A stretch of 64,000 bases of DNA from the human T2T-CHM13v2.0 reference genome, Homo sapiens, in the NCBI RefSeq assembly GCF_009914755.1, contig NC_060928.1; one strand, 5' to 3'. Position numbers and translations under genes: made by a program. The notes under the pieces were generated by a model. The model searched no databases. It worked only from the letters and a program-made list of their open reading frames with translations, and had not been told where the DNA came from. Of the stretch, positions 14,488-24,079 are shown piece by piece (the first letter of the stretch is position 1; every line of letters begins with the position of its first letter).

Positions 14488-17175
14488 TACCTCTTTTCTT
14501 TGCAAATTTATAGCAATCACAGAGGAAACTTTCATGGATATAAAATCATTAGGTAAAAACTTTTTATGTTGTAAACATCATCAAAGTCATGATGTTTAAA
14601 AAACCAACCAAACAAAAAATACTAGCAGACAAACACATCTACCATACAGCAATGGAAAATTAGCAGCCCCAACATTTTATTCTGGATTTTCTGAAGAAAT
14701 AAATTAAGATGATATCCACATATTTCCATAAAAAGCTTTCAAAATAAGTAGTACTTACTACTCTATGTGCATATGATTATTGCTGAATTGGTTTTCAGTT
14801 TGGATTATGCATATATATGATGCACATATATGGCATTATGCAAAAAAATGTTAAATGCTAAGAGGAATATGAGGGGTTTCTGAGAGAGCATGTACTTTCT
14901 TATGAGGGCAAGCTTTAAATGGCATTGAGGTCATTATCACTAGGGATTCAATCATTTCCAACAATCCCTTCAACAGGGAGGATTATGGGCTGACATCTCA
15001 TTATTGAAGTACTGAAACATGAATAATTTGTCCTACGTTGATAGGAGATACTGAAACCCATATAGTTATGAGGTCATAGCTGTAAAGAATAAACTCTAAA
15101 ATTATTACAAAAGAATAATAATGGGAAAGAAATACTAATGAAAACTATGATTGTATATACATCCCATGTAATTTACATATATTCATCATCTTTTGTTAAA
15201 TAAATATGGTTATCAGATGTTTATCTTGTTTAAATAAAATTGCGTTTTTTAAAAAAGTCTATTGCTGATATTTCCAAATTTCCTATGAAATTAAGTGGCA
15301 GAGAAGGAATATAAATGAGAGAAAAAAGCAAAAGATTCATGAGTTAATGAAGTAGTCATTCTTGGGACTGAAAACAGGTACATCCTTCTCTCTTTGGTTT
15401 TTCTTATATAATATAATATGAAATAATAAAAATGCCGAGTCATTGCATGTTCAGTGAACAGAGTAAATTTGAATACAGTATCAGAAGTGTGGCAAAGTAA
15501 ATATAAATATTATTTATAAAGGAAATCTGACTTTCCAAGCATATGTGAAATTATTCATATTTAAAACAAAAACAATACAAAATCAGCTTAATAATGATTT
15601 TACAGCAGTTGTTACAAAGAACCAGTGTTAAAATTTTATAACAAGTTTACTAGTAGACTATGCAAATATCTCTGTCCACATTCTTAAAGAGAACAGAACA
15701 CAGATTAAATAAGATTAGTGTAAGTGTGTAAGCAACTAAAGGTATTCAGTGTTGCAGTGAAAATTAGCCTGCAGCATAGAGCTGATTTTGCTATTTCAAC
15801 CAAACTACATCATTGCCAGCCATATTGAAAATCTCATTTGTCCAAGAATTAAGGATAAATAATCTCTAATTTCATTAAGTAAACTTTGAATTATTGAAAA
15901 TATGTTTTATTATTAAAAGAAAGCATTGGAAAATCATCAGCTATTCCTTTAATCTATCTTTTAACAAAAAATACAATAATAAAGACTAACATGAAACAGA
16001 GAGACACTCACAGGTTATATAAAACCTCTAGGCCCATTTGTCCAGCATTTGTAAATCTCTTATCGAGAGTGAAGGGCAAAAAATATATTTAGTTGGTTTC
16101 CTCATAGATGGATGTTGACTTGGAAAAAAAATAGAACTTTAAAAAAAATAGATCTTAAAAGGGGCTACATGTTTTTTACTGATAAAATAGAAGTACAGAA
16201 ATATCACGTTTCTCTTAATGCTTCTGTATGCAGTTTATATAATATTTTGCAATATTCTCTTAAAATTAAAATGATAATAGCAAATGAGTAACAGAAGAAT
16301 TGAGATGATAGAACTAAAATTAAGAATTTTTGGTATAGAACTTTTGAGAAATTTACATGTATAAATATATATGTATTTATATGCTGTAACTCTACATATG
16401 TATTTATACATGCATATAATTAAGAATATTATAATTTCAAAAAGTGCTGATGAATTACCCTAGTTTTCACTTCCTCCAAATATTTTTAATTTTCTACTTT
16501 GTATGTCCTTTCATACAGTGTTTTATCTTGAACACTTATCTGAAAATAAATAATTTCTCAAAAGATCACAATAAAGTCACATGGTCATTGAGTTCATGAT
16601 TTTAAAATGCATTTATTTATTTTTATAGAAACCAAGGTTGTCGTCTTCCATGGTCCTTGGTGAACTTACCATGCTCCATCAGCCTGGGTGCACAGCATAA
16701 GCAAGAACAAAACTATTGTTTTAAGACCTGGAGTGGTTGGGTAAGGGCAAGGTTGTGTTTAAAGATGCATCAGAATTCAGACAAAGGAATAGCCCCTAAT
16801 ATCATACTCAGATACTTTTTCTGTCATCTGAAGTATACGTGTCCTCATCCTCCTCAGGGCTGTGCTGTTCTTGGCATCTTTCACAGCCACTGCTATGCTC
16901 ACACTGGTGTATACACTTCCTGTGGTGGCTCCATCAGAAGCCAGCGAAGAGGTGATTCTATTGTATTTCTTAGAGTATTACGTGAAGCCCTATGCCAATT
17001 TGGGCCATTCCTTGTGGGCCTCTTTCTGAGCATTGTCATGCACCAAAAGCACCAAGAAAACACTCTCAGAACCAAGGTGCAGGCCCTGCTGGGTGGAGAT
17101 GCTCCCTGGTCAGCCTATTTGCTGTGACCACTCTGGCATATGTGGTGGACGATGCCTCTGCTTCCTCTCTAGTGG

Positions 17176-17237
17176 CTGCAGCTCTCTACCAAGCCCTCCA
17201 CCAGATCTGCAGCTCTCTACCAAGTCCTCCACTGGAC
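17176..17237 (+). repeat. 31-bp tandem duplication inside the OACYL retrocopy CDS
   Basis: CTGCAGCTCTCTACCAAGCCCTCCACCAGAT (17176-17206) and CTGCAGCTCTCTACCAAGTCCTCCACTGGAC (17207-17237), 4 mismatches. Confidence 0.95.
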
Positions 17238-17238
17238 C

Positions 17239-17409
17239 CCCTCAATTTCCAGCGATGAGGCTTAGGGTTGAGGATAGACTTGAGATGCTGGGATCCAAGT
17301 TCTCAGATGTGTGTTTTTTCTAGGTGTATAACTTCATATTAACCGTCTACAACTTGTGGATGTCTCCCATCACTTATAATAAAGCTCTTTGTTTGCTTAA
17401 AAAAAAAAA
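17239..17409 (+). repeat. Internal polyadenylated duplicate of the retrocopy's own 3' terminus (second copy at 18788-18991)
   Basis: Aligns to 18788-18961 with ~13 substitutions, a 13-nt deletion and two 1-nt indels. Has its own AATAAA (17378-17383) and A11 (17399-17409). Confidence 0.95.
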
Positions 17410-18252
17410 GTCCTTTTTGTATGCCACAGAGGCTATGGAGGTCTGGTGAACTTCGTGCTTTCTTGGGACATCTGGATTTTTTGGCCAGCATCAGTTATGC
17501 TTGCTACTTACTCTGGTCATCCTCTGCAATGAGCTTCAGGAAACACTTGCTCACTGCACTGACAAGATGTTCTATCTTTTCTCTGGACACTGTCTGCTGA
17601 CCTTCATTACTGGGCTGGCCCTGACGCTATTCACTGGGTAACCATCCTGGGAACTGAAGCAGTTCCTGGTGGGCCATGAATGTTCTGGTTAAAAGCCAGA
17701 AGAATGGATGGGTCTTTGTTGGTGGTGACAAGCAAAGACCCCGTGGCCTTGTTTATGTAATGAATGCTTGTGTTGCTGAGAAAGGGTGTAAATCTGATTT
17801 TGTGAAAGTCTGATATATCCAAGCTCTTTGTATGTAGTATTTAAAAGAGTTCTGAGTACTTATGATGCAAAAGAATTCTATGATAATTTTTAGTAGCACA
17901 TTAATCAACTTCTGTTGGAACTTTTTAGCAAAAAAAAAAAAACCTAGATTTCTTTTTTGCTTGATCTGTATTTGATTTTTATACCAATGATCATAGGAAA
18001 TGATCAAATGTGAATTTAATGTAAGTTGGGTTCTGAAGCTCACTTGGGTTATAACATTTGCATTTCTCTGTAAAATTATAGTAGGCAGTATGCACTTTCC
18101 TACAACATAATTGTTCATATGTTATTATGGTATCTTTGTAAACTAGTAACTTTATCCTAGAACCTCAGGGTGGTATGTCTGACTAGCACACACAATTCAT
18201 GGGTTTGTCATTATAGGCCTTTCAAATATCACCTTTTCTTCAAGATGGTCCT

Positions 18253-18728
18253 TGTTTTGGACTAAATTGTATTTCTGCCCCCAAAATCCTATGTTGAAAT
18301 CTAACCCCCAGTGCATCAGAATGTGGCTTATTTGGAGACAGGGTCTTTAGAAGGTAATTAAGTCAAGTGGGGTCACTGGAGATGGAGACTCTAATCCAGT
18401 ATGGCTGGTGTCCTTATAAAAAGAGGAAATTTAGACACAGAGACAGGCAAGCACACAAGGAAGATGATGTGAAGATACACGGGGAAAAGACGGTCGTCTG
18501 CAAACCAAGGAATACCAAGGATTGCTGGCAAAGACCAGAAACTGAGGGAAGCAAAGACCAGAAACTGAGGGAAGTAGTCTCCCCTAGAGCTGTCCAAGAG
18601 AGCATGGCTCTTTAGGACATCTTGATTTTGGACTTCTCGCCTCCAGAACTGTAAGACAATACATTTCTGTTATTTCAAGCCACCCAGTTTATGGTGCTTT
18701 GCAATAGCGGCCTTAGGGAACTAAAGTA
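18253..18728 (+). mobile_element. MaLR LTR, MLT1B/C-like, within the retrocopy 3' UTR
   Basis: TATTTGGAGACAGGGTCTTT, GGTGTCCTTATAAAAAGAGGAAATTTAGACACAGA, CCTCCAGAACTGTAAGACAATACATTTCTG; contains a perfect 23-bp tandem duplication at 18528-18573. Confidence 0.9.
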
Positions 18729-20339
18729 GTGCCCCCCAAAAAATGACAAAGAAGGAATAAACCTCAGTGAGGGACTTTTAGCCCAATCCTTCAATTTCCA
18801 GTGATGTGGCCTAGGGGTGAGGATAGACTTGCAAGGCCAAATAGAGACGCTGGGATCCAGGTTCTCAAGCGTGTGTTTCTCCTAGGTGTATAACTTCACA
18901 TTAACTTGTCTACACTTGTGGATGTCTCCCATCACTTATAATAAAGCTCTTTGTTTGCTTTAAGAAAAAAAGAAAAGAAAGAAAGAAAGAAAGAAACCAA
19001 AAGAAAGTTACTTCACTCATGCCTGAAAATACAAATGATTTATTGATTTACTTGCTCTTATTTCTTCCCACTTGATATTAAATCACAAATAAAAGCATGG
19101 TAATGTTCTCGCAGAGCTATGTAAGGACATAATGTTTTAAATACTGACTGGAATGAATATATATTTTGACATTGATACCAGAGAAATGTTAGTATCATTT
19201 TGATTTTCAATAATTCAGATGTTAGGCTTTTAGAACTTTTATATATACATTTCTTGGGTATATTCAAAATTAATAAGGTCATATGGTTGCCATAAGAAAA
19301 TCATAGCTAAAGTGATTTAAAATGTAGGAGCCACAATTGATTTAATTACACGCCAAGAAATGAAGAACAAAAATGATATAAATGCTTCTAATAGGAAAAG
19401 AAAACTGTTTTTACAGAGTTAAACCATCATCGAGTTAAACAAGCACATAACCTATCTTGGTTTGGACCTTCGGAGAGTGGACTGATGGCCTGAAGTGTGA
19501 TCTGAATTGATGGGGCAGAGACATTCTATACACACAGATAACCGGCCTCTCGTCTTGCGAAGTTCTCCAGTGCATAGTCAGAGCTAGTGACCTTACTGAG
19601 TAGGGTGACTAAGAGTGTGACAAAGGGTGACTCTGCCCATATTTTCTCTGTGTCTTCCCATTGCGATGGGTCATTTTAAAGCTGACACCAATCTTTAACC
19701 CATAAGTAATTCTATATTAAAAAAAAAACCCCTGGTTACAGCACATTTAATAGTGATAATTCCACAGTATGTTAATTATCTGGTCTCTCTAAAATAAGTC
19801 ACTGTAAGGGGCTCCAGCTTTTTTCTTATGATATTAAATAAATCAGAGAAGAAGAGGTTATCATGATGGTTCGGAGGCACTCCAAGTCCAGAAAGAGAGA
19901 AGTCCCGAAGAGTTATAAGGATTTAACGAATTGGTTGCTCAAACTCTTTGGCAGTAGAAAGGTTGTGCAGGAATCTAAAGGCAGAGAGAGACTGAAACTA
20001 ATGAAAGAAGTGAACCATAAAAGTAAGTTTTTTCCTCCTAGGGTACTTCTCCAAAATGCAATTTTCTTAGCCCCATACCCTAGGGTAATTTTGAGACTGA
20101 TGGTCTGAAACCACATTTTGAGAGACTCCTTTAAGAGCTCTTTTTATTGTCTTTCAAACCAGCTTCCTCAAGGTATGGTGGTCATGTATTTAAATTGGTG
20201 CTTAAGAATATATTCAATTTTAGATTCATAGCTCCCCCAGCTGATTTTAAGATTTGATTTTTCCTTTTCATCTAGAGGGGCTTTTTAGTTTCACTATAGT
20301 ATGCTTAATGTGGATGTCTTTTAATATTTTTCAGTACTC

Positions 20340-23815: not shown

Positions 23816-23911
23816 GTCTACAATGATACCATCCTGAACATGTCTGATCTTTTCTGATCTCAGAAGCTAAGCAGGATTGGGCCTGGTTAGTACTTGTATG
23901 AGAGAGTGCCT
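23816..23911 (+). pseudogene. RNA5SP: 5S rRNA pseudogene (3'-truncated, ~80% identity)
   Basis: GTCTAC...ATACCATCCTGAAC...CTGATCTCAGAAGCTAAGCAGGATTGGGCCTGGTTAGTACTTG...GCCT is colinear with vertebrate 5S rRNA nt 1-96. About 18 mismatches by eye, many at CpG sites. Confidence 0.93.
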
Positions 23912-24079
23912 AAAAATAACACTTGAAGTCTTGAAACAATTACTGTAAATATCAGTGAATGAAGGAATGAAAAGACAAGCCACTGACTGAGGGGAAATAT
24001 TTGCAAAGACATCTGACAAATAACTGTTATCCAAACTGTACAAAAACTCTTAAAATTCAACATTAAAAAACACACAGCC

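What the first reader, a model, noticed from the sequence alone, without database searches (positions are those of the whole stretch)
16627..19000. OACYL retrocopy with a second polyadenylated copy of its own 3' end inside its CDS
Seen: between 9-bp TSDs (AGAAACCAA) the order is CDS part A, a 31-bp tandem duplication (17176-17237), ~160 nt of the transcript's own terminal 3' UTR with AATAAA and A11 (17239-17409), CDS part B (from VLFVCHRGYGG), the full 3' UTR, and the final poly(A). The inner copy has no TSD of its own. The two 3'-end copies differ by ~8%, and the 31-bp duplicates show one ancestral CpG decayed in opposite directions (CCAG vs CTGG), so all parts look comparably old. From memory of OACYL, about 8 codons (LWAAAVGW-like) are missing at the insertion point. 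Inference: one L1-mediated TPRT event in which the RT stalled in the CDS, re-primed on the poly(A) of a second mRNA molecule or the same looped one, then jumped back upstream with slippage. Two independent insertions of the same rare mRNA into the same spot would be very improbable.
Basis: partly seen in the sequence, partly recalled or inferred. Interest (0 to 1): 0.8.

Follow-up and report, generated by a model that had tools for sequence, protein, structure and literature searches.

The report
OACYL retrocopy with duplicated 3' end
An ancient, dead retro-copied fragment of the OACYL gene on chromosome 4 carries a second copy of its own polyadenylated tail inside its coding part; the extra copy looks only about half as old as the retrocopy, so a later DNA copying slip is somewhat more likely than one unusual reverse-transcription event.

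Summary
Window 16636-18991 is a spliced, polyadenylated retrocopy of the OACYL-like gene on chr18, flanked by 9-bp target-site duplications. Inside exon h lie a 31-nt tandem duplication and a 163-nt copy of the transcript's own 3' end with AATAAA and A11. Twenty-two nt (LWAAAVG*) are missing at that point. The unit is not a dispersed repeat: the genome holds three copies (inner, outer, chr18 parent). All three novel junctions show 1-4 nt of microhomology.

The single-event interpretation is only partly supported. Inner and outer copies differ at 8.6-9.9% of sites. About 15-19% is expected if both date from the insertion. That expectation rests on retrocopy-parent divergence of 18.7% and roughly equal rates on the two lineages, measured on a repeat inside the 3' UTR and on the CDS. 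The three-way counts are inner 4, outer 9-11, parent 21 (p 0.0007-0.016).

Best reading (about 0.5): a later, microhomology-mediated DNA-level templated insertion copied from the outer 3' end. Rival (about 0.3): L1 reverse-transcriptase template switching during the original insertion, with later homogenisation or clock noise. Orthologous primate loci would decide; none could be reached here. Interest is modest.

The parts
16627..16635 (+). Left target-site duplication AGAAACCAA, preceded by TTTTTAT (top strand TTAT/AGAA, a degenerate L1 endonuclease site)
   Evidence: D16
16636..16636 (+). Extra G between the TSD and the first base homologous to chr18. It may come from the mRNA cap (inference).
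16637..16733 (+). Alternative first exon of the source transcript. It corresponds to chr18 59244835-59244928 plus 11 nt beyond an Alu that is present only in the parent. It lies in the intron upstream of exon c, and the parent has a GT donor after ...TTGGAG.
16734..17175 (+). Spliced exons c, f, g and the start of exon h (about aa 341-373 and 458-575 of the 689-aa orthologue). The two exons coding aa 374-457 are skipped. Several frameshifts and stop codons are present.
17176..17206 (+). Copy 1 of the 31-nt tandem duplication (parent L017 613-644). CTG microhomology at the duplication junction.
   Evidence: (D5)
17207..17238 (+). Copy 2 of the tandem duplication. It runs on to parental position 645 (GGACCC), which is the end of CDS part A.
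17236..17398 (+). Inner copy of the last about 163 nt of the 3' UTR (AATAAA at 17378-17383). The first 3-4 nt (ACCC) are shared with the CDS as junction microhomology. It lacks 13 nt that the outer copy and the parent both have.
   Evidence: (D1-D3)
17399..17409 (+). Uninterrupted A11 after the cleavage site of the inner copy. The last A may belong to the CDS (parent ...CTGAGTCC).
17410..17692 (+). CDS part B: the rest of exon h from parental position 668/669, then exon i and the coding part of the last exon up to TAA at 17690-17692. The 22 nt of parent L017 646-667 are absent at the 17409|17410 junction.
17693..18960 (+). Full 3' UTR. It includes a dispersed LTR-like repeat at 18262-18740 that the parent also has, and the outer terminal unit 18785-18960 with AATAAA at 18940-18945.
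18961..18991 (+). Outer poly(A) tail, decayed into a (GAAA)n-like tract (TAAGAAAAAAAGAAAAGAAAG...)
18992..19000 (+). Right target-site duplication AGAAACCAA
   Evidence: D16

Best explanation
The host element is an ordinary L1-mediated processed pseudogene. It was made early in primate evolution from an internally initiated, exon-skipped OACYL transcript.

The inner block is a 31-nt tandem duplication, plus 163 nt of 3' UTR and A11, plus a 22-nt deletion. Most likely it was added later at the DNA level. A polymerase copying the retrocopy stalled or broke within exon h. It then made serial microhomology-mediated template switches of the MMBIR, FoSTeS or polymerase-theta kind.

One switch went to the retrocopy's own 3' end, 1.56 kb downstream and in the same orientation. 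It left that template inside the A-rich tail and returned 22 nt away from its departure point. A variant gives the same product: a 1.56-kb tandem duplication followed by a 1.4-kb deletion.

Shown: the anatomy, the junction microhomologies, and the inner copy's closer kinship to the outer copy than expected for equal age. Inferred: the DNA nature of the template and the one-step order of events. The element has no function.
For: (1) Divergence of the two copies.
- Retrocopy and parent differ at 255 of 1361 ungapped sites in the last exon (18.7%). The spread over 160-column windows is Poisson-like (mean 30, variance 30.9).
- The outer terminal unit is normal, at 18.9% from the parent.

(2) Relative rates of the two lineages.
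- Tests used single outgroup copies of the repeat inside the 3' UTR.
- With 28 outgroups picked using the retrocopy as query, the median parent/retro ratio was 1.25. Sums were 892 parent-unique against 745 retro-unique.
- With 28 outgroups picked using the parent as query, the median was 0.72. Sums were 773 against 1018.
- The two lineages therefore evolve about equally fast.
- CDS polarisation with orthologue proteins puts 46.5 changes on the retro branch in 246 codons. That is about 8% of nonsynonymous sites.

(3) Expected against observed.
- Equal age predicts about 25-30 inner-outer differences in 162 sites. Observed: 14-16. Poisson P is 0.0008-0.017 for a rate ratio of 1-1.25.
- Three-way counts are inner 4, outer 9-11, parent 21 and all-different 1.
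- The likelihood-ratio test of a star tree against shared history gives p = 0.0007-0.016 for a ratio of 1-1.25.
- The estimated split lies at 0.5-0.6 of the retrocopy's age.

(4) The 47-nt identical run.
- At 9% divergence its probability is 0.13. At 16-19% it is 0.001-0.005.

(5) CpG sites.
- At three sites the parent keeps a CpG and both copies carry the same decay product. No site shows opposite products (read).

(6) Junctions.
- All three have microhomology: ACCC, A or AG, and CTG.
- The template lies 1.56 kb away in cis.
- The inner run (GCTT + 11 nt + G) has the same length as the outer tail up to one of its G interruptions (D1).

(7) DNA-level slippage is documented at this locus.
- A perfect 23-nt tandem duplication at 18528-18573 is absent from the parent.

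(8) Templated insertions by template switching at microhomology are a described class (PMC8421209; only the start of the abstract in the listing was seen).
Against: - The inner copy ends exactly at the mRNA cleavage site and is followed by a clean A11. That is what an RNA template predicts. For a DNA-level copy, an endpoint inside a roughly 30-nt tail is a coincidence of a few per cent (my estimate), unless the A/GAAA tract itself stalls replication.
- The clock argument rests on 14-16 differences. The outgroups are noisy (68-81% identical). Selection bias runs in opposite directions in the two outgroup sets.
- With a parent/retro rate ratio of 2, the test is no longer significant (p 0.17-0.32 with parent count 21).
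- Counts depend on the alignment. Default MAFFT gave 4, 18 and 26; lower gap penalties gave 4, 11 and 21.
- In the first about 115 columns alone, inner-outer divergence is 12-14%. That is compatible with full age if the last 47 nt were homogenised.
- The 31-nt duplicates differ at 4 of 31 sites, which fits either age.
- No orthologous locus was examined.
Confidence: 0.5

Rival explanations
1. This is the reader's model: one target-primed reverse transcription event with template switches.

- L1 reverse transcriptase copies the mRNA from the poly(A) down to exon h position 668.
- It stops before a G-rich block and re-primes on the poly(A) of a second OACYL mRNA or of the same molecule.
- It copies A11 plus about 163-185 nt, then returns to exon h at position 645 through ACCC microhomology.
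- It slips once more by 32 nt at CTG, then finishes.

The low inner-outer divergence would then come from later gene conversion of the 3' part of the unit, or from chance.
For: - One TSD pair encloses everything, and the inner copy has no TSD of its own.
- The inner copy ends at the cleavage site with a pure A11.
- All parts share one orientation.
- The skipped 22 nt are 59% G. In the predicted fold they pair with the duplicated 31 nt.
- RT template switching that yields bipartite and tripartite chimeras within one TSD pair is described (PMC2104539, abstract and Background read).
- In induced L1 expression, long reads showed 1 tripartite insertion from one mRNA's 3' UTR and 9 two-transcript insertions. 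The set was 99 L1 and 235 pseudogene insertions (PMC11702581, passages and section 7 read).
- The first about 115 columns (12-14% divergence) and the 31-nt duplicates (4 of 31) are compatible with full age.
Against: - Inner-outer divergence is about half the expectation. The tree is strongly asymmetric: 4, 9-11 and 21, p 0.0007-0.016 for a rate ratio of 1-1.25.
- Rescue by gene conversion would need a late event between 170-bp repeats that were already about 10-15% diverged. Recombination between such diverged short repeats is inefficient (recalled, not tested).
- The cDNA end that would have to prime on poly(A) ends in ...GGACT. Only one T can pair.
- The described chimeras have a full-length 5' partner from a different RNA (PMC2104539). 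Here the middle piece is a 5'-truncated piece of the same RNA.
- The hairpin is not more stable than shuffled sequence (z = +0.77).
Confidence: 0.3
2. A later RNA-templated patch. The retrocopy locus was transcribed and polyadenylated at its own AATAAA. The 3' end of that transcript was reverse-transcribed at a DNA break in exon h, in an endonuclease-independent, repair-like insertion. This left a 5'-truncated copy with a short A tail, no TSD and a 22-nt target deletion.
For: - It fits both the younger age of the inner copy and the exact poly(A) boundary.
- There is no TSD. There is a target deletion and 4-nt microhomology at the 5' junction.
- The site next to the A-run is not an L1 endonuclease site (bottom strand GGACT/CAG).
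- These are the features I recall for endonuclease-independent L1 insertions. This is recalled and comes from no call.
Against: - There is no evidence that the locus is or was transcribed. No gene is annotated here (hub table).
- Use of a local, rare RNA rather than abundant L1, Alu or mRNA templates has a very low prior.
- The 31-nt duplication needs a separate step.
Confidence: 0.05
3. A second, independent L1-mediated insertion of a heavily 5'-truncated parental OACYL mRNA into the first retrocopy.
For: A short 3' fragment with a poly(A) tail is what a strongly 5'-truncated retrocopy looks like.
Against: - The inner copy shares 21 states with the outer copy against the parent. It shares only 9-11 with the parent against the outer copy.
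- It has no TSD.
- The genome holds no other OACYL retrocopy (3 of 3 matches). A second hit in a 2.3-kb target is therefore extremely improbable.
Confidence: 0.01

Closest known systems
L1-mediated processed pseudogene (retrocopy)
   Same: It is spliced and polyadenylated and is flanked by a 9-bp TSD at a T/A-rich site. The parent gene, with introns, lies on another chromosome.
   Different: It carries an internal second copy of its own 3' end with an A-run, a 31-nt tandem duplication and a 22-nt deletion.
Bipartite and tripartite chimeric retrogenes formed by LINE RT template switching (Buzdin, Gogvadze; PMC2104539)
   Same: Several cDNA pieces are joined head to tail in one orientation inside one TSD pair. 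Two or more template jumps would be needed.
   Different: - All pieces here come from one mRNA.
- The middle piece is 5'-truncated, not a full-length RNA.
- The enzyme would have to return to the first template 22 nt from where it left.
- The pieces do not look equally old.
Complex L1-mediated insertions seen with long reads after induced L1 expression (PMC11702581, preprint)
   Same: Multi-part insertions from one mRNA's 3' UTR, or from two transcripts, were attributed to template-switching RT. Junctions showed microhomology or untemplated bases.
   Different: Those are fresh events whose single origin is known. Here the origin must be inferred from an old copy, and the molecular clock argues against a single origin.
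Microhomology-mediated templated insertions (MMBIR, FoSTeS, polymerase-theta repair; PMC8421209, start of abstract in the search listing only)
   Same: - Microhomology of 1-4 nt at every junction.
- A template nearby in cis.
- A small duplication and a small deletion at the same point.
- The insertion is younger than its host sequence.
   Different: A 174-nt insert copied from 1.56 kb away is long for polymerase-theta fillers (recalled). One endpoint falls in the poly(A) tail.

Membership tests
L1-mediated processed pseudogene | Intron-less copy of a spliced transcript of a gene located elsewhere | tested here: met
   The retrocopy matches chr18 exon by exon. The parental exon ends are flanked by AG and GT.
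L1-mediated processed pseudogene | 3' poly(A) tail directly after the cleavage site, downstream of AATAAA | tested here: met
   AATAAA at 18940-18945. An A-rich tail at 18961-18991 is absent from the parent.
L1-mediated processed pseudogene | Target-site duplication flanking the whole insert | tested here: met
   A 9-bp exact repeat lies at both borders of homology (D16).
Chimeric retrogene by RT template switching | Parts fused in the same orientation within one TSD pair | tested here: met
Chimeric retrogene by RT template switching | The 5' partner is a full-length copy of another cellular RNA (feature list in PMC2104539, Background) | tested here: not met
   The inserted piece is the last about 163-185 nt of the same mRNA.
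Chimeric retrogene by RT template switching | All parts date from the same insertion event | tested here: inconclusive
   Inner-outer divergence is 8.6-9.9% against about 15-19% expected; p 0.0007-0.017 for a rate ratio of 1-1.25, and not significant at a ratio of 2. Orthologous loci were not available.
Nested independent retro-insertion | Own TSD, and sequence derived from the parental lineage | tested here: not met
   No flanking repeat. The inner copy groups with the outer copy.
Microhomology-mediated templated insertion (MMBIR, FoSTeS type) | Microhomology at the breakpoints | tested here: met
   ACCC, A/AG and CTG
Microhomology-mediated templated insertion (MMBIR, FoSTeS type) | Inserted sequence templated from nearby DNA | tested here: inconclusive
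   A donor lies 1.56 kb downstream, and the inner copy is closest to it. A DNA template cannot be told from an RNA template by sequence alone.
Microhomology-mediated templated insertion (MMBIR, FoSTeS type) | An ancestral allele without the insertion existed after the host sequence formed | not testable with these tools
   No other primate genome is held. Scans of two collections for an outgroup gave only 20-21-nt chance matches.
Dispersed repeat | Many copies across the genome | tested here: not met
   3 of 3 scored candidates: two in the window and one on chr18.

The most novel reading that the evidence does not exclude
The inner copy is RNA-templated. There are two versions.

(a) The original insertion was a self-chimeric retrocopy. 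L1 reverse transcriptase left exon h at a G-rich hairpin arm, re-primed on an OACYL poly(A) tail, copied about 170 nt and returned 22 nt further on.

(b) More novel: a break in the old retrocopy was later patched by reverse transcription of the retrocopy's own polyadenylated transcript.

Either would be a natural germline record of template jumping to a poly(A) tail from an internal position.
Probability: 0.35. Interest if true: 0.5.

Novelty: new member of a known kind. Interest (0 to 1): 0.3.

Why it matters
If the block arose in the original insertion, it would be a natural example of repeated L1 reverse-transcriptase template switching on a single mRNA. That would include re-priming on poly(A) and a return to the first template. 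Such an example bears on how chimeric retrogenes and complex insertions form.

If it is a later DNA-level templated insertion, as the divergence data suggest, it is an ordinary complex rearrangement in neutral DNA. Its main value is then a caution: a poly(A)-bounded internal duplicate inside one TSD pair does not prove a single reverse-transcription event. The age of the parts must be tested against twice the retrocopy's own branch, not against the parent. Nothing suggests a function.

Tried and rejected
- Dispersed-repeat origin of the 160-nt unit: rejected, only three genomic copies.
- A second copy of the unit inside the parental gene, such as an alternative exon: not found on chr18.
- Independent second retro-insertion: rejected by the three-way counts.
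- Pfam on five ORF fragments: no meaningful hit, all below the cut-offs. Gene identity came instead.
- G-quadruplex or hairpin as a stall site:
  - the fold pairs the duplicated 31 nt with the deleted 22 nt;
  - the local energy is not better than shuffles (z = +0.77);
  - the G-quadruplex option changed nothing;
  - it is kept only as a remark.
- Outgroup sequences from other mammals:
  - one scan of genome contigs and one of viral contigs used a 20-nt conserved motif;
  - they gave 2 and 1 loci, all matching over 20-21 nt only.
- Literature on this retrocopy: one search for OACYLP found 9 papers. None concerned a retrocopy, judging by title and the start of the abstract. I found no description of it.
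- Default MAFFT three-way alignments misplace a 1-nt indel and a 9-nt parental insertion and so inflate the counts. I used the lower-gap-penalty alignment and report both.

Full report
**What is there**

Window 16636-18991 (+ strand) is a processed pseudogene.

- A search of the window's own genome matches it piece by piece to chr18 59.24-59.27 Mb.
- The parental pieces are bounded by AG and GT, so the copy is spliced.
- A 65-aa reading frame of the copy finds 18 proteins at E <= 0.001 among 78 candidates. Most are named 'O-acyltransferase like' by a source; the rest are named nose-resistant-to-fluoxetine or hypothetical. Their precomputed domains are PF01757 and/or PF20146.
- The insert lies between exact 9-bp repeats: AGAAACCAA at 16627-16635 and 18992-19000.
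- It ends in a decayed A-rich tail after AATAAA at 18940-18945.

**The internal block**

Against the parental exon h (locus L017), the copy reads as follows.

- CDS up to parental position 645.
- Within it, a tandem duplication of parental positions 613-644 (17176-17206 and 17207-17237; 27 of 31 identical). The parent has CCGG where the duplicates have CCAG and CTGG.
- 163 nt that match the last about 185 nt of the parental last exon (17236-17398), followed by A11 (17399-17409).
- The CDS again from parental position 668/669.

Parental positions 646-667 (22 nt) are absent. The human parent encodes LWAAAVG* there, and a Mandrillus orthologue has LWAAAAGW.

The unit is not a dispersed repeat. 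Two searches each returned 3 of 3 scored candidates: inner, outer and chr18. The parent gene has no second copy of it.

Every novel junction has microhomology.

| Junction | Microhomology |
|---|---|
| CDS to UTR | ACCC |
| A-run to CDS | A, or AG if the tail's G interruption is counted |
| Tandem-duplication junction | CTG |

**The source transcript and its age**

- The first 97 nt of the copy come from the intron upstream of exon c on chr18. The parent has a GT donor after them.
- In the parent that stretch is now split by an Alu with its own TSD, which the copy lacks.
- The two exons coding aa 374-457 are skipped.
- One extra G precedes the homology.
- At residues derived in human, Old World monkey and lemur, the copy has the derived state at 7 of 9 sites.
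- At residues derived only in human and Old World monkey, it has the derived state at 0 of 11 sites (7 ancestral, 4 other).
- The copy was therefore made after the primate stem changes. It predates most or all changes on the lineage to catarrhines.

**Is the inner copy as old as the retrocopy?**

A DNA copy of the outer end would inherit the outer end's divergence from the parent.

The right comparison is inner against outer, set against twice the retrocopy's own branch.

- Retrocopy and parent differ at 255 of 1361 ungapped sites of the last exon (18.7%). The variance across windows is Poisson-like. The outer terminal unit is normal at 18.9%.

I split that distance between the two lineages using the dispersed repeat inside the 3' UTR. 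Other genomic copies served one at a time as outgroups.

| Outgroup set | Copies used | Retro-unique (sum) | Parent-unique (sum) | Median parent/retro |
|---|---|---|---|---|
| Picked with the retrocopy as query | 28 | 745 | 892 | 1.25 |
| Picked with the parent as query | 28 | 1018 | 773 | 0.72 |

- These were the 28 stored outgroup loci of each search; the searches reported 46 and 41 matches in all.
- The two selection biases run in opposite directions. The ratio is therefore near 1.
- Independently, orthologue proteins place 46.5 changes on the retro branch and 26.5 on the parental branch in 246 codons; 10 are unpolarised. That is about 8% of nonsynonymous sites, if three quarters of sites are nonsynonymous (my assumption).
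- Two copies as old as the retrocopy should thus differ at about 15-19% of sites.

Observed values:

- 14-16 differences in 162 columns, or 8.6-9.9%.
- Three-way counts of inner-unique 4, outer-unique 9-11 (two of the 11 lie in the junction microhomology), parent-unique 21 and all-different 1.
- Default alignment settings give 4, 18 and 26, because they misplace a 1-nt indel and a 9-nt parental insertion.
- A likelihood-ratio test of equal branches against shared history gives p = 0.0007-0.016 for rate ratios of 1-1.25. At a ratio of 1.45 it gives p = 0.02-0.05. At a ratio of 2 it is not significant (p 0.17-0.32).
- The split is estimated at 0.5-0.6 of the retrocopy's age.
- A 47-nt identical run at the 3' end has probability 0.13 at 9% divergence and 0.001-0.005 at 16-19%.
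- At three CpG sites kept by the parent, both copies carry the same decay product. At none do they carry opposite products (read).

**Weighing the mechanisms**

The clean A11 placed exactly at the cleavage site favours an RNA template. RT template switching within one TSD pair is a described phenomenon (PMC2104539, abstract and Background). It has also been seen in fresh insertions (PMC11702581, section 7).

Several points weigh against a single event.

- The clock result needs a late gene conversion between short, already diverged repeats, or a locally slow clock.
- The cDNA end that would prime on poly(A) has a single matching T.
- The described chimeras have a full-length partner from a different RNA.

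A DNA-level serial template switch explains several things without extra events:

- the age of the inner copy;
- the microhomologies;
- the adjacent small duplication and deletion;
- the equal length of the inner A-run and the outer tail up to a G (D1).

It does have to accept an endpoint in the tail as a coincidence, or as a consequence of stalling in the A/GAAA tract. DNA slippage has occurred here: the perfect 23-nt duplication at 18528-18573 is absent from the parent.

My odds are as follows.

| Mechanism | Probability |
|---|---|
| Later DNA-level event | about 0.5 |
| Single RT event | about 0.3 |
| Later RNA-templated patch from the retrocopy's own transcript | about 0.05 |
| Independent second insertion | about 0.01 |
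| Unassigned | the rest |

**Limits**

- No other primate or mammalian genome was available. Two scans for outgroup sequence gave only chance matches.
- The decisive presence/absence test and the polarisation of the 21 shared sites therefore could not be run.
- The counts are small and depend on the alignment.
- The outgroup copies are only 68-81% identical to the focal copies.

**Verdict**

This is a real and correctly described structure in an old, non-functional pseudogene. Its mechanism is unresolved between two known kinds of template switching. Interest is modest.

Noticed in passing
window 16636-16733; chr18 59244835-59245240 (L019): The retrocopy starts with an extra G, followed by about 97 nt from the intron upstream of exon c of the chr18 gene, and the parent has a GT donor after them. 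The source was therefore an internally initiated transcript. In the parent that stretch now holds an Alu with TSD ATTGTTTT, which the retrocopy lacks.
   Followed up: partly
window about 16831-16834 (exon c / exon f junction): The two exons coding aa 374-457 (chr18 59252775-59252945 and 59254439-59254519; 252 nt, in frame) are absent from the retrocopy. This points to an exon-skipped isoform as the source.
   Followed up: partly
window 18528-18573: A perfect 23-nt tandem duplication (GCAAAGACCAGAAACTGAGGGAA twice) sits inside the LTR-like repeat of the 3' UTR. The parent lacks it, so it is a young DNA-level duplication.
   Followed up: yes
window 17930-17942: The retrocopy has an A13 run where the human parent has a (CAA)n microsatellite.
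   Followed up: no
L017 613-667 (chr18 exon h): In the predicted fold of the parental exon, the duplicated 31 nt and the deleted 22 nt (59% G) form the two arms of one imperfect hairpin, with GGACCC in the loop. The fold is not more stable than shuffled sequence (z = +0.77).
   Followed up: partly
L017 666-668 (chr18 exon h): The human parental gene has TGA where orthologues have a Trp codon (LWAAAVG* against LWAAAAGW). This fits its status as a unitary pseudogene.
   Followed up: no
window 16734-17692: The retrocopy keeps ancestral residues at 7 of 11 sites derived in human plus Old World monkey, and has the derived state at none. It has the derived state at 7 of 9 sites derived in human, monkey and lemur. 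This dates it to early primate evolution.
   Followed up: yes
window 23816-23951: A 5S rRNA pseudogene (RNA5SP173 in the hub's table) lies 5 kb downstream. I did not examine it.
   Followed up: no
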